A stretch of 64,000 nucleotides of DNA. Origin: a phage. The position numbers and the translations under genes are program-made. The stretch's first letter is position 1. Every line of letters starts with the position of its first letter. Below the pieces are notes generated by a model, which did no database searches, had not been told where the DNA came from, and saw nothing but the letters and a program-made list of their open reading frames with translations. Below, in pieces: positions 16,961 through 18,274 of the stretch. Location: sequence record PZ379176.1; one strand, 5' to 3'.

Positions 16961-18274
16961 ATGATTGTTATCCCGATTAACCAAATTGAAGATAAGGTTG
17001 CTCAACAACCTGATATCACTGTTGGTCGTCACTTCATTGAACAATTGATTAACAACAACTTGATTCCAGATGGTATCTGTCCCATCATTACTGGTGGGGC
17101 TGTTCGTGATGCTGTCCTTAATAACATAGCTCCACATGACATTGATATCTTTATTGTCAGAGGACAAACACCAAGAACTCAAAACACTTTCATCCCAACT
17201 GATCGTTGGCAAGAGCTTGGACGGGAGATTGAAAGTAATGTGAAGGAATGGCTAGAGTCACAAGATATTGAATATGCATCACTTCTTGCTGAAGCTACAA
17301 ACGAATCCTATGCTGGGGGTTCTCAATTAACATTCACTGATATTATTGAGTTTCAGTGGAATGGGGTTCGTATCCAATTCATGTTTAATTATCCTACTTC
17401 TATTGAAGAGGTATTGGATAATTTTCCTATGATGTGCCGTGGTGCGATGACTCTTGACAACTTATTCATGACTTCTCACGGATATTTGGCTATGACTTCC
17501 CCTTGTCCAGTGGTTGTCTATAGTCGTGAAATCAGGTATGTTCACAAGAAGTGGCCTAACTCACAAGTGTTGAGATTTTCCTCTCCAGCAGTTGCGCATC
17601 AATACATGGCCCAAACTCGATATCTTCCCACACCTCAGCCAGTTAGTCATCTAGTCAATGGATTAGGTCAGGTTTCTCTTATTGAAGATACAACAAGTGC
17701 TCTATATTGTGTTAACCAAGACATGAGTCGATTCTTTGGAATCCCTTATGAAGAGATTCAGATTATGTCTAGTCTTCACGGTTCTGGTCAGATTCATGCG
17801 TATTGGTCTGAGGGGTTGACAAATTTAACGACTAACACGGGTGGTGATCTGCTTGGTCGAGAAGAGGAACCTAACCGACACAATGCAATTGAAGGGGTGT
17901 TTGTAGCCCCTGCAATGCGTCGAGCACAAGAGTCACGAAGAGAAAGCCCTACTCGTAGAACATCTTTTGAAGAAGCTCTTGGTATTACAAGTGATTCTAT
18001 GGAGCGATGGATGGCTAGACCCTCTCGTGGTCGACCAAACGGCTTAACTGTTAGCGCACGTCAGTTCTCTGGTCAGGGTTTCGCTGTTGGTGATATCAAC
18101 GCCCCTTCTCGTGTTATCTGGACTGATGAAGGTATGGAACAAGATTTGGGAGATAGTCTCGCTGATCGCTTTATTGCTAACAACCCTGAAGTATTAGAAC
18201 CTCAAACCCGTACAGTTCGGTTTGCCGATGAAGCGGGTCGTGGAATCTCTTTTGACATGGAAACAAATAACTAA
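16961..18274 (+). CDS. nucleotidyltransferase of the CCA-adding enzyme / poly(A) polymerase family (head domain), with uncharacterised C-terminal region
   Basis: GGAVRDAVLNNIAPHDIDIFIV closely resembles the N-terminal motif of tRNA nucleotidyltransferases; start trimmed to ATG 16961 just after upstream stop. Confidence 0.55.
   Translation: MIVIPINQIEDKVAQQPDITVGRHFIEQLINNNLIPDGICPIITGGAVRDAVLNNIAPHDIDIFIVRGQTPRTQNTFIPTDRWQELGREIESNVKEWLESQDIEYASLLAEATNESYAGGSQLTFTDIIEFQWNGVRIQFMFNYPTSIEEVLDNFPMMCRGAMTLDNLFMTSHGYLAMTSPCPVVVYSREIRYVHKKWPNSQVLRFSSPAVAHQYMAQTRYLPTPQPVSHLVNGLGQVSLIEDTTSALYCVNQDMSRFFGIPYEEIQIMSSLHGSGQIHAYWSEGLTNLTTNTGGDLLGREEEPNRHNAIEGVFVAPAMRRAQESRRESPTRRTSFEEALGITSDSMERWMARPSRGRPNGLTVSARQFSGQGFAVGDINAPSRVIWTDEGMEQDLGDSLADRFIANNPEVLEPQTRTVRFADEAGRGISFDMETNN

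What the first reader, a model, noticed from the sequence alone, without database searches (positions are those of the whole stretch)
16961..18274. Phage-encoded CCA-adding-enzyme-family nucleotidyltransferase, in a genome that also carries tRNA genes
The N-terminus GGAVRDAVLNNIAPHDIDIF is a close match to the head-domain motif of tRNA nucleotidyltransferases / poly(A) polymerases; the remaining 350 residues are unassigned. Together with the tRNA-Arg(UCU) and tRNA-like elements, this suggests tRNA 3'-end repair or RNA tailing, plausibly as a counter-measure to host tRNA-targeting nucleases.
Basis: partly seen in the sequence, partly recalled or inferred. Interest (0 to 1): 0.65.

Follow-up and report, generated by a model that had tools for sequence, protein, structure and literature searches.

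The report
Gad2-like phage nucleotidyltransferase, not CCA-adding
This gene of a phiEco32-like coliphage encodes a stripped-down enzyme descended from the tRNA CCA-adding / poly(A) polymerase lineage. It has lost every feature needed to repair tRNA, it groups with the phage "Gad2" anti-defence nucleotidyltransferases, and it sits as a fixed part of the phage's DNA-replication gene block.

Summary
The ORF is real: 16961-18274, + strand, 437 aa. The quoted motif lies at aa 45-64. The window is a Kuravirus (phiEco32-like) genome, and public records have called this gene a "nucleotidyltransferase / class II CCA-adding enzyme domain" since 2014.

- Motif B (RRD) is replaced.
- Motif D (EDxxR) is absent.
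- There are no body or tail tRNA-binding domains.
- The third catalytic Glu is probably an invariant Gln.
- The Pfam PolyA_pol score is below the curated cut-off.

Profile comparisons place it with small phage NTases and the Gabija anti-defence protein Gad2 (PF26128), not with canonical CCA enzymes. Residues 245-290 hold a conserved helix and an aromatic motif. The rest is a variable disordered tail.

The gene always lies between the T7-type DNA-polymerase exonuclease subunit and dCTP deaminase, down to about 25% identity. The only tRNA is 16.6 kb away and already encodes its CCA end.

Verdict: the family call was right, and tRNA repair is not supported. A replication-linked, Gad2-like counter-defence role is the best guess. 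It is unproven.

The parts
16961..18274 (+). CDS of the 437-aa nucleotidyltransferase (PHROG 12715)
   Evidence: ORF list. PHROG 12715, E=7.6e-244, full length. 98 phage records carry it. The SU10 orthologue was detected by mass spectrometry.
16961..17680 (+). Folded NTase domain, aa 1-240: class-II-type head plus a rudimentary neck
17093..17152 (+). Motif A: GGAVRDAVLNNIAPHDIDIF. It contains G45, G46, R49, D50 and the catalytic pair D60 and D62.
   Evidence: These residues are invariant in 25 family members at 21-33% identity. The motif aligns to E. coli Cca residues 5-27.
17339..17389 (+). Beta-hairpin, aa 127-143 (DIIEFQWNGVRIQFMFN). Position 127 is always D/E and Q139 is invariant. Q139 sits where class II enzymes have the third catalytic Glu.
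   Evidence: Residue counts. Secondary structure: E125-133 and E136-146. Class II strand pattern 'hEVxTFR'. The register is inferred, not superposed.
17420..17437 (+). NFPMMC, aa 154-159: the remodelled equivalent of class II motif B (RRDxTIN) and of the Gad2/small-NTase 'FDFxxC' motif. P156 is invariant.
   Evidence: hhalign bridging alignments. HMM alignment. Invariance.
17525..17557 (+). REIRYVHKKWP, aa 189-199: a family-specific helix. Position 190 is always D/E. Y193 and K197 are invariant. It lies where class II enzymes have the EDxxR...RFxxR neck helix.
   Evidence: A canonical EDxxR is absent under either candidate register.
17717..17818 (+). Conserved extension, aa 253-286: a helix (F259) followed by an [NQD][WYF][ST]xG[LR] motif (W282). 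A partner-docking role is a guess.
   Evidence: F/L/Y/I at position 259 in 25/25 sequences. An aromatic at position 282 in 21/25. Low-confidence helices in the model.
17831..18271 (+). Variable, disordered C-terminal tail, aa 291-437
   Evidence: pLDDT is below 50 almost throughout aa 272-437. Counted from aa 241, the C-terminal part is 33-244 aa long across the family, with net charge about 0 overall and -11 in this protein. No Pfam hit.
16402..16959 (+). Upstream neighbour: separate 3'-5' exonuclease subunit of a T7-type DNA polymerase. Its stop codon ends 1 nt before the NTase ATG.
   Evidence: PF01612, E=2e-8. Matches T7 gp5 residues 3-178, E=1e-11. Junction sequence ...AAAATGTAAAATG....
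14618..16408 (+). Primase/helicase (T7 gp4-like), the first gene of the conserved cassette
   Evidence: DnaB_C and Toprim hits. Synteny.
18284..18817 (+). Downstream neighbour: dCTP deaminase
   Evidence: PF22769, E=3.6e-34. It follows the NTase in every locus examined.
237..312 (+). The only tRNA in the window, Arg(UCU). Its gene ends ...GCGCA-CCA, so the CCA end is genome-encoded. It lies 16.6 kb from the NTase gene.
   Evidence: ARAGORN, Rfam, sequence.

Best explanation
What it is (well supported). The ORF encodes a catalytically equipped but stripped-down Pol-beta-type nucleotidyltransferase. Its ~240-aa N-terminal domain descends from the head, plus part of the neck, of class II CCA-adding enzymes and poly(A) polymerases. 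It belongs to a phage-specific clade that also contains the small 'head-only' NTases of T7-like phages (PHROG 1614) and Gad2, the Gabija anti-defence protein (Pfam PF26128). It is not a CCA-adding enzyme. It is a core gene of Gordonclarkvirinae and their uncultured relatives. It always sits in the cassette primase/helicase - DNA-polymerase exonuclease subunit - NTase - dCTP deaminase, and its start abuts or overlaps the exonuclease stop codon.

How it most likely works (inferred). The protein is made together with the replisome. It uses the GG/DxD centre to transfer a nucleotidyl group from an NTP or dNTP. Its nucleotide pocket is remodelled: no RRD ribose-sensing motif and no EDxxR base-templating motif. 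The acceptor is probably something linked to replicating phage DNA or the nucleotide pool, not tRNA. The acceptor could be a DNA 3' end, or the enzyme could make a nucleotide-derived product. Either way it would protect the phage from nuclease-based host immunity, in the manner of Gad2. The conserved helix-plus-aromatic motif in the otherwise disordered tail would dock it to a partner.

The substrate, the product and the defence system targeted are unknown.

For: Active centre: G45, G46, R49, D50, D60 and D62 are invariant, and position 127 is always acidic, across 25 members at 21-33% identity.

Clade placement:
- hhalign, family vs small phage NTases: 99.4%, E=2e-21.
- Small NTases vs Gad2 homologues, including the experimentally verified Brevibacillus Gad2: 98.6%, E=8.8e-16.
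- Family vs Gad2 set: 90.7%, E=1.2e-6.
- Window protein vs the Gad2+small-NTase HMM: 60.8 bits. The best of 120 canonical Cca proteins scores 19.4 bits.
- Precomputed Pfam hit PF26128 'Gad2 (weak)' on a 93%-identical homologue, and an unmarked hit on a small NTase.

Gad2 function: knocking out gad2 sensitises SPbetaL7 to Gabija, and a homologue inhibits Gabija. The mechanism was still unknown in 2026.

Synteny: exo-NTase-dCTP deaminase is kept in Kuravirus, Nieuwekanaalvirus, Suseptimavirus and metagenomic relatives (26-36% identity to the window protein in alignment A6).

Head-only relatives also lie beside primase/helicase and DNA polymerase in phages Percy, Phriendly and BD5.

Expression: the SU10 orthologue was seen by mass spectrometry among early gene products.

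The phage group is unusually resistant to restriction-modification with no known mechanism, and the BASEL authors themselves point at this gene. EcoRV, EcoRI, EcoKI and EcoP1 sites are not avoided in the window.
Against: - No activity, substrate or phenotype has been measured for any member of this family.
- The link to verified Gad2 is transitive. The family HMM scores Brevibacillus Gad2 at only 10.3 bits and the B. atrophaeus homologue at 18.5 bits. The Pfam hit is 'weak' and is absent from distant family members.
- The ~200-aa C-terminal domain of Gad2 has no counterpart here.
- The Asp of the Gad2/small-NTase 'FD' motif is an invariant Pro in this family.
- Gad2 lies in a variable anti-defence locus, whereas this gene is a fixed core gene. 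That fits a housekeeping replication role as well as it fits a counter-defence role.
- The probable Gln at the third-carboxylate position could mean unusual or weak catalysis.
- Gabija was not among the systems tested on these phages.
- phiEco32 DNA was restriction-mapped and sub-cloned, which argues against heavy DNA modification.
Confidence: 0.4

Rival explanations
1. It is a phage CCA-adding or tRNA 3'-end repair enzyme, or an RNA-tailing enzyme. It restores tRNA ends clipped by host tRNA-targeting nucleases and works together with the phage tRNA-Arg.
For: Motif A is nearly identical to that of E. coli Cca. The closest solved folds are CCA-adding enzymes and PAP I. The DxD centre is conserved. 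Toxins that remove tRNA 3' ends exist (established knowledge: HEPN-MNT systems, CdiA-CT EC869). Genuine CCA-adding enzymes are common in phages.
Against: - The motif B RRD is replaced by xFP, and motif D EDxxR is absent.
- There is no PF12627 RNA-binding domain and no body or tail. The C-terminal half is disordered, is not basic, and varies from 33 to 244 aa.
- The Pfam PF01743 score is below the curated cut-off.
- Genuine phage CCA enzymes keep 30-56% identity to host Cca, and none of them is in Gordonclarkvirinae.
- The tRNA gene encodes its own CCA and lies 16.6 kb away.
- Relatives sit in replication modules with no tRNA in the loci examined.
- The host already has Cca.
Confidence: 0.1
2. 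It is a housekeeping replication or DNA-modification enzyme, as the BASEL authors suggest. Together with dCTP deaminase it would make or install a non-canonical nucleotide, or it would tail or cap DNA 3' ends during T7-like replication. That would explain the broad resistance to restriction.
For: Strict synteny and apparent translational coupling with replisome genes. Restriction resistance with no known mechanism. EcoRV, EcoRI, EcoKI and EcoP1 sites are present at or above expectation. The loss of the ribose-sensing RRD motif would permit dNTP use (inference from the class II literature).
Against: - The phage also encodes ThyX and a dNMP kinase, so the deaminase fits ordinary dTTP supply.
- phiEco32 DNA was restriction-profiled and sub-cloned.
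- Strong avoidance of CCWGG and GATC and of several GC-rich palindromes implies that ordinary, cleavable or methylatable bases are present.
- No known DNA hypermodification pathway uses a Pol-beta NTase of this type (own knowledge).
- This reading overlaps with the best explanation and cannot be separated from it here.
Confidence: 0.2
3. It synthesises or consumes a nucleotide signal. It could be cGAS/CD-NTase-like, or a decoy or sponge-like enzyme, interfering with host signalling-based immunity.
Against: CD-NTase matches are clearly weaker than class II matches. There are no PADLOC or CD-NTase profile hits. The domain lacks the second lobe that forms the acceptor pocket of CD-NTases (inferred from the short aligned lengths).
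Confidence: 0.07
4. It is a non-catalytic protein that keeps an NTase fold as a scaffold or nucleotide-binding module for the replisome.
For: The residue at the probable third-carboxylate position is an invariant Gln. Motifs B and D are lost. There is a long disordered tail with a short conserved docking-like motif.
Against: G45, G46, R49, D50, D60 and D62 are invariant, and positions 127 and 190 are always acidic, across sequences only 21-33% identical. This pattern is typical of retained catalysis. The same Gln is conserved in Gad2 and in the small NTases, and Gad2 is active in vivo.
Confidence: 0.06

Closest known systems
Gad2 (Gabija anti-defence 2; Pfam PF26128) of Bacillus phage SPbetaL7 and its Brevibacillus laterosporus prophage homologue
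   Same: Both are phage-encoded. The N-terminal NTase domain carries hGG...DxD, an 'hQhh' strand with a conserved Gln, an F[D/P]xxxC motif and a basic/aromatic helix. Profile-profile homology is 90.7%, E=1.2e-6 directly, and 99.4% / 98.6% through the small NTases. Close homologues carry a weak PF26128 hit.
   Different: Gad2 has a folded ~200-aa C-terminal domain, whereas this protein has a disordered tail. The Asp of the 'FD' motif is Pro here. Gad2 lies in a swappable anti-defence locus of temperate Bacillus phages, whereas this gene is a fixed core gene of the replication cassette of virulent coliphages. Anti-Gabija activity has not been tested here.
Small head-only phage NTases (PHROG 1614), e.g. 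Caulobacter phage Percy gp13, Vibrio phage Phriendly gp29 and Vibrio phage BD5
   Same: These are the closest sequence relatives outside the family (hhalign E=2e-21; PHROG 1614 E=1.6e-7). They share the same motifs and lie next to primase/helicase and DNA polymerase in podophages.
   Different: They are only 170-230 aa long and have no tail. They keep the 'FD' Asp and an R..KY.DKGF helix. Their function is also unknown.
Class II CCA-adding enzymes and bacterial poly(A) polymerase I (PF01743 + PF12627), e.g. E. coli Cca, B. stearothermophilus CCA (1MIV) and E. coli PAP I (3AQL)
   Different: This protein has no motif B RRD, no motif D EDxxR, no motif C/E pattern and no body or tail domains. The third Glu is probably Gln. 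The Pfam score is below the cut-off. It scores 60.8 bits against the Gad2+small-NTase HMM, whereas the best of 120 Cca proteins scores 19.4 bits.
Genuine phage-encoded CCA-adding enzymes (large Vibrio, Erwinia, Klebsiella and jumbo phages)
   Same: They are phage-borne members of the same superfamily.
   Different: They keep 30-56% identity to host Cca over head, neck and usually body. They are annotated as tRNA nucleotidyltransferases in 428 phage records, none of them Gordonclarkvirinae.

Membership tests
Class II CCA-adding enzyme / tRNA nucleotidyltransferase | Pol-beta head domain with motif A (GGxVRD ... DxD) | tested here: met
   GGAVRD at aa 45-50 and DID at aa 60-62. These are invariant in the family.
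Class II CCA-adding enzyme / tRNA nucleotidyltransferase | Overall head/neck fold | tested here: met
Class II CCA-adding enzyme / tRNA nucleotidyltransferase | Third catalytic carboxylate (Glu in the 'hEVxTFR' strand) | tested here: inconclusive
   By strand order and hairpin register the equivalent residue is the invariant Gln139. An always-acidic residue 127, and E130 in most members, lie nearby. No coordinate superposition was available.
Class II CCA-adding enzyme / tRNA nucleotidyltransferase | Motif B, RRD (ribose recognition) | tested here: not met
   The aligned segment is NFP (aa 154-156), with P156 invariant. The register is supported by the bridging 'FDFxxC' family.
Class II CCA-adding enzyme / tRNA nucleotidyltransferase | Motif D, EDxxR (amino-acid template for CTP/ATP) | tested here: not met
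   There is no EDxxR anywhere in aa 170-200. The conserved segment is [RTK][DE]xxYxxxK.
Class II CCA-adding enzyme / tRNA nucleotidyltransferase | Body and tail domains that bind the tRNA (PF12627 and beyond) | tested here: not met
   No Pfam hit beyond aa 124. Aa 272-437 are almost entirely below pLDDT 50. The part after aa 240 varies from 33 to 244 aa. Real Cca proteins all carry PF12627.
Class II CCA-adding enzyme / tRNA nucleotidyltransferase | Pfam PF01743 at or above the gathering score | tested here: not met
   18.8 bits against a cut-off of 23.
Class II CCA-adding enzyme / tRNA nucleotidyltransferase | CCA addition to tRNA 3' ends | not testable with these tools
   This needs a biochemical assay.
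Gad2 (PF26128) anti-Gabija nucleotidyltransferases | Match to the Pfam PF26128 profile | tested here: inconclusive
   The precomputed hit is marked 'weak' on a 93%-identical homologue and is listed for most close homologues. It is absent from the distant members P0045, P0046 and P0064. The model is not in the local Pfam copy.
Gad2 (PF26128) anti-Gabija nucleotidyltransferases | Profile-level homology to verified Gad2 and its published homologues | tested here: met
   hhalign 90.7%, E=1.2e-6 over 161 columns. 60.8 bits against the Gad2+small-NTase HMM. Transitive links of 99.4% and 98.6%. The direct HMM score to Brevibacillus Gad2 itself is only 10.3 bits.
Gad2 (PF26128) anti-Gabija nucleotidyltransferases | Signature motifs: hGG, DxD, hQhh, FDFxxC | tested here: inconclusive
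   The first three are present. In the fourth, Asp is replaced by the invariant Pro156.
Gad2 (PF26128) anti-Gabija nucleotidyltransferases | Folded C-terminal domain of the ~400-aa Gad2 proteins | tested here: not met
   The alignment ends near aa 217 and the tail is disordered. Many proteins that the authors list as Gad2 homologues also lack this domain (214-278 aa).
Gad2 (PF26128) anti-Gabija nucleotidyltransferases | Inhibition of Gabija defence | not testable with these tools
   Gabija was not in the BASEL panel.
PHROG 12715 (Gordonclarkvirinae nucleotidyltransferase) | Full-length profile match | tested here: met
   E=7.6e-244 over residues 1-437.
Pol-beta-like nucleotidyltransferase superfamily | hG[GS] ... 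DxD signature on the alpha/beta sandwich fold | tested here: met

The most novel reading that the evidence does not exclude
The NTase is a replisome-tethered, Gad2-type enzyme. It would chemically protect replicating phage DNA, for example by nucleotidylating or capping DNA 3' ends, or by making a nucleotide-derived nuclease inhibitor. It would be the so far unidentified reason why Gordonclarkvirinae resist restriction-modification and other nuclease defences although they carry many recognition sites. That would reveal both the unknown chemistry of Gad2 and a new enzymatic route of anti-restriction.
Probability: 0.12. Interest if true: 0.8.

Novelty: new member of a known kind. Interest (0 to 1): 0.38.

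Why it matters
The mechanism of Gad2 is still unknown, and Gordonclarkvirinae are therapeutically popular coliphages whose strong restriction resistance is unexplained. This analysis links a core gene of their replication cassette to the Gad2 clade. It is a small gene, and relatives that plate on E. coli K-12 exist (BASEL Bas86-94). That makes two open questions directly testable: what does a Gad2-type NTase do chemically, and what protects these genomes?

The analysis also corrects a widespread annotation. 'Class II CCA-adding enzyme domain' suggests tRNA repair, and the sequence does not support that.

Tried and rejected
Searches that returned nothing useful:
- PDB sequence searches with the protein and with a family profile gave nothing significant beyond the 20-aa motif A.
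- NCBIfam and PADLOC gave no hits.
- BFVD found only the orthologue and uncharacterised phage proteins.
- hhalign in global mode failed, and hhalign against single sequences aligned only motif A.
- The paper search on amidoligase + phiEco32 and the Privateer paper were uninformative for this gene.

Resources that were unavailable:
- The afdb50 fold library was not on the machine.
- PF26128 is not in the local Pfam copy, so its score for the window protein could not be recomputed.
- The phiEco32 temporal-expression paper, the published Nature version of the Gad2 paper and a 2026 preprint that mentions Gad2 could not be read.

Ideas I tested and dropped:
- I first mapped EDxxR onto REIRY (aa 189-193) by eye. 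I dropped this because the bridged HMM alignments place the class II ED about 6-7 residues earlier. Under either register the motif is absent.
- A basic, RNA-binding tail like that of PAP I: tails are near neutral, and this one is -11.
- The NTase as the 'missing' polymerase partner of the lone exonuclease subunit: a separate Pol A polymerase gene exists about 8.5 kb downstream.
- Restriction-site avoidance as the explanation for restriction resistance: EcoRV, EcoRI, EcoKI and EcoP1 sites are at or above expectation.
- Extra tRNA-like elements: none were found.
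Full report
**1. Origin of the window and check of the observation**

The region 16400-18900 is 99.9% identical to Shigella phage ShigP1 and 99.5% identical to Escherichia phage SkaterBoy_Bas90. It is about 92% identical to phiEco32. The window is therefore a Kuravirus of the Gordonclarkvirinae, the prolate C3 podophages.

An ATG at 16961 runs to a stop at 18272-18274 and gives 437 aa. A longer reading from a GTG at 16904 would overlap the upstream gene. All relatives begin M-I-x-I-P, so 16961 is the start.

The motif GGAVRDAVLNNIAPHDIDIF lies at aa 45-64. It aligns with the N-terminus of E. coli Cca.

The claim of several tRNA or tRNA-like elements does not hold. ARAGORN and Rfam find a single tRNA-Arg(UCU) at 237-312. 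It is 16.6 kb upstream, and its gene already ends in CCA.

The annotation is not new:
- The SU10 paper used that name in 2014 and detected the protein by mass spectrometry among early gene products (PMC4281155).
- It is PHROG 12715 (E=7.6e-244).

**2. Anatomy of the protein**

A first AlphaFold model, built from close homologues only, showed a folded N-terminal part and almost nothing above pLDDT 50 from aa 272 to the end. An exhaustive HMMER search of 1.84 billion representative proteins found only about 30 clusters of this family with E<1e-10. With these sequences the N-terminal 240 residues fold with mean pLDDT 90.5 and pTM 0.87.

Across 25 members that are 21-33% identical to the window protein:
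- The invariant residues are M1, G45, G46, R49, D50, D60, D62, F64, Y117, I128, Q139, P156, Y193 and K197.
- Positions 127 and 190 are always Asp or Glu.

After the domain comes a moderately conserved helix (F/L/Y/I at position 259 in 25/25). It is followed by an [NQD][WYF][ST]xG[LR] motif, with an aromatic at position 282 in 21/25.

The rest of the protein is a polar tail. Counted from aa 241, the C-terminal part ranges from 33 to 244 aa across the family. Its net charge is near zero overall and -11 in this protein.

**3. Fold**

- The Aquifex A-adding enzyme (4WBY).
- The Thermotoga (3H37), human (1OU5) and Arabidopsis (9KMA) CCA enzymes, and 3WFO.

**4. Why it is not a CCA-adding enzyme**

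I built a reference alignment of class II enzymes from E. coli Cca and PcnB, five phage CCA enzymes and two bacterial Cca proteins. Its invariant columns reproduce the textbook motifs:
- Motif A: GGxVRD...DxD.
- The Glu of the 'hEVxTFR' strand.
- Motif B: RRDxTIN.
- The Asp of motif C.
- Motif D: EDxxR...RxxRF.
- Motif E: R...E.

In the phage protein only motif A is present.

Direct profile-profile alignment to class II is weak beyond motif A (82%, E=1.1e-5). I therefore bridged through a group of small phage NTases that match both sides. They match class II at 96.6%, E=4.8e-10, and this family at 99.4%, E=2e-21. In these alignments:
- Class II 'RRDFTINA' corresponds to 'xFDFxxCx' of the small NTases and to 'NFPMMCRG' here, with P156 invariant.
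- No EDxxR is present. The family has [RTK][DE]xxYxxxK instead.

The hairpin that carries the third catalytic Glu in class II enzymes reads 'VRIQFMF' here, with Gln139 invariant. This register rests on strand order (E125-133 and E136-146) and on sequence pattern, not on a coordinate superposition. I therefore mark it as inferred.

Other failed criteria:
- Pfam PF01743 scores 18.8 bits, below its cut-off of 23.
- PF12627, the RNA-binding domain present in all 120 Cca proteins retrieved, is absent.

Genuine phage CCA-adding enzymes are easy to recognise. There are 428 phage records with 30-56% identity to E. coli Cca, mostly large phages, and none of them is in Gordonclarkvirinae.

**5. The closer relatives: small phage NTases and Gad2**

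Most close homologues carry a precomputed Pfam hit to PF26128. That model is missing from the local Pfam copy. A context look-up revealed its name, Gad2.

What is published about Gad2:
- It is the second Gabija anti-defence protein of Yirmiya et al.
- Deleting it from Bacillus phage SPbetaL7 makes the phage sensitive to Gabija.
- A Brevibacillus prophage homologue blocks Gabija.
- AlphaFold predicts an NTase domain.
- 170 homologues occur in phages and prophages (bioRxiv 10.1101/2023.05.01.538930).
- A 2026 review still lists its mechanism as unknown, and describes Gabija as a nuclease system that senses RecBCD inhibition and DNA ends (PMC12904381).

From the paper's supplementary table I took nine Gad2 homologues, including the verified one. 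They carry the same signature as the small NTases: IAGG...NDxDxYF, 'LQhIHF', 'FDFTVCMGA' and 'LRVQKYxDKGY'. The comparisons gave:
- An HMM of these nine alone recovers the small NTases at E=7e-20 to 1e-7 for the best four. It recovers members of the present family only weakly, 0.002 at best.
- hhalign of the present family against the Gad2 set: 90.7%, E=1.2e-6 over 161 columns.

The protein therefore belongs to a phage-specific clade, Gad2 / PHROG 1614 / PHROG 12715, that split from the class II head domain. Its tie to verified Gad2 is real but distant and partly transitive. It lacks the Gad2 C-terminal domain, and the 'FD' Asp is Pro here.

**6. Genomic context**

In every locus examined the order is primase/helicase, then a T7-type 3'-5' exonuclease subunit, then the NTase, then dCTP deaminase. 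Thioredoxin and ThyX lie nearby. The exonuclease subunit matches T7 gp5 residues 3-178 at E=1e-11.

This order holds in:
- Kuravirus.
- Nieuwekanaalvirus EP335.
- Suseptimavirus-like Bas87.
- Five metagenomic lineages at about 26-36% protein identity to the window protein.

The NTase start abuts or overlaps the exonuclease stop. In the window the junction reads TAA-A-ATG, which suggests translational coupling.

Among 50,697 sequenced phages the family occurs only in the 98 Gordonclarkvirinae records. The small head-only relatives in Caulobacter phage Percy and in Vibrio phages Phriendly and BD5 also lie directly beside primase/helicase and DNA polymerase. No tRNA genes occur in those stretches. 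So the recurrent association is with replication genes, not with tRNAs.

**7. Bearing on function**

The BASEL-2 study found that Gordonclarkvirinae are 'remarkably resistant' to restriction-modification without any known protection. It pointed at the dCTP deaminase and this NTase as candidates for a DNA modification (PMC11990801).

Points bearing on that idea:
- The window is not depleted of EcoRV (35), EcoRI (12), EcoKI (8) or EcoP1 (109) sites, so site avoidance does not explain that resistance.
- Against a wholesale base replacement, the phage has ThyX, so the deaminase fits normal dTTP supply.
- phiEco32 DNA was restriction-profiled and sub-cloned.
- The genome strongly avoids CCWGG (4 against about 75 expected) and GATC (observed/expected 0.43).
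- Gabija was not tested on these phages.

Taken together, the most economical reading is an active NTase with a remodelled nucleotide pocket. It would work in the context of phage DNA replication and, like its relative Gad2, probably protect the phage from nuclease-type immunity. I give this 0.4 confidence. The structural and family statements within it are much firmer (about 0.8-0.9) than the functional ones.

My confidence in the rivals:
- A housekeeping or DNA-modifying role: about 0.2. It overlaps with the best explanation and cannot be separated from it here.
- tRNA-end repair or RNA tailing: about 0.1.
- Nucleotide signalling: 0.07.
- A non-catalytic scaffold: 0.06.

**8. Novelty and score**

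The observation itself is already in public annotation. The new points are:
- The protein fails the CCA-enzyme membership tests.
- It belongs to the Gad2 clade.
- It has a conserved tail motif.
- It is a fixed component of the replication cassette across deep divergence.

I rate it as a new, divergent member of a known kind, with interest 0.38. The gene is still a good experimental handle on two open questions: the chemistry of Gad2 and the restriction resistance of Gordonclarkvirinae.

Noticed in passing
window ~11594, ~12714 and ~26168: Three single-base deletions relative to SkaterBoy_Bas90. Two lie in homopolymer runs (A5 vs A6, and G4 vs G5) and one lies next to a C-run. They split or truncate three genes: the glutamine amidotransferase (10146-11789), the ATP-grasp ligase (12280-12735 / 12762-13472) and the Pol A polymerase (25454-26179 / 26194-27297). 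They are probably sequencing errors in the source record, not real pseudogenes. The target region 14600-18900 has no indels.
   Followed up: partly
whole window: Uneven restriction-site census. CCWGG occurs 4 times against ~75 expected, and GATC has observed/expected 0.43. There are no BamHI, PstI, KpnI, SacI or NcoI sites. EcoRV (35), EcoRI (12), EcoKI (8) and EcoP1 (109) sites are at or above expectation, although these phages are reported to resist such systems.
   Followed up: partly
window 16402-16959 and 25454-27297: The T7-type DNA polymerase is split into a separate 185-aa exonuclease subunit and a polymerase gene about 8.5 kb downstream. The NTase, dCTP deaminase, thioredoxin, ThyX and many small ORFs lie in between.
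   Followed up: partly
window ~7194-14398: A cluster of COOH-NH2 ligase, amidoligase, glutamine amidotransferase, RimK-like ATP-grasp and gamma-glutamyl cyclotransferase genes lies directly upstream of the replication cassette. Parts of it (amidoligase, GATase, GGACT) accompany the cassette even in distant metagenomic relatives. Its product is unknown.
   Followed up: no
window 18818-19433: Three tandem small ORFs of 65, 69 and 69 aa lie right after dCTP deaminase. They look like paralogues and all end in ...KVYY, KVHY or KVIYY. Their function is unknown.
   Followed up: no
window 237-312: The single phage tRNA-Arg(UCU) gene encodes its own 3' CCA. It needs no de novo CCA addition.
   Followed up: yes
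window 16340-16408, and family C-termini: The primase/helicase ends in ...ADGASPW. About a third of the NTase family members end within three residues of a Trp or Phe, for example ...RWQW...REVW...GGWTF...RSEW and ...TWDW. This recalls the C-terminal aromatic docking residues of T7 gp4 and gp2.5 that bind T7 DNA polymerase (own knowledge). It was not tested.
   Followed up: no
Pfam PF26128: The Pfam family 'Gad2' appears in the precomputed tables but not in the local Pfam-A copy. A routine hmmscan of this protein therefore misses its most informative relative.
   Followed up: yes
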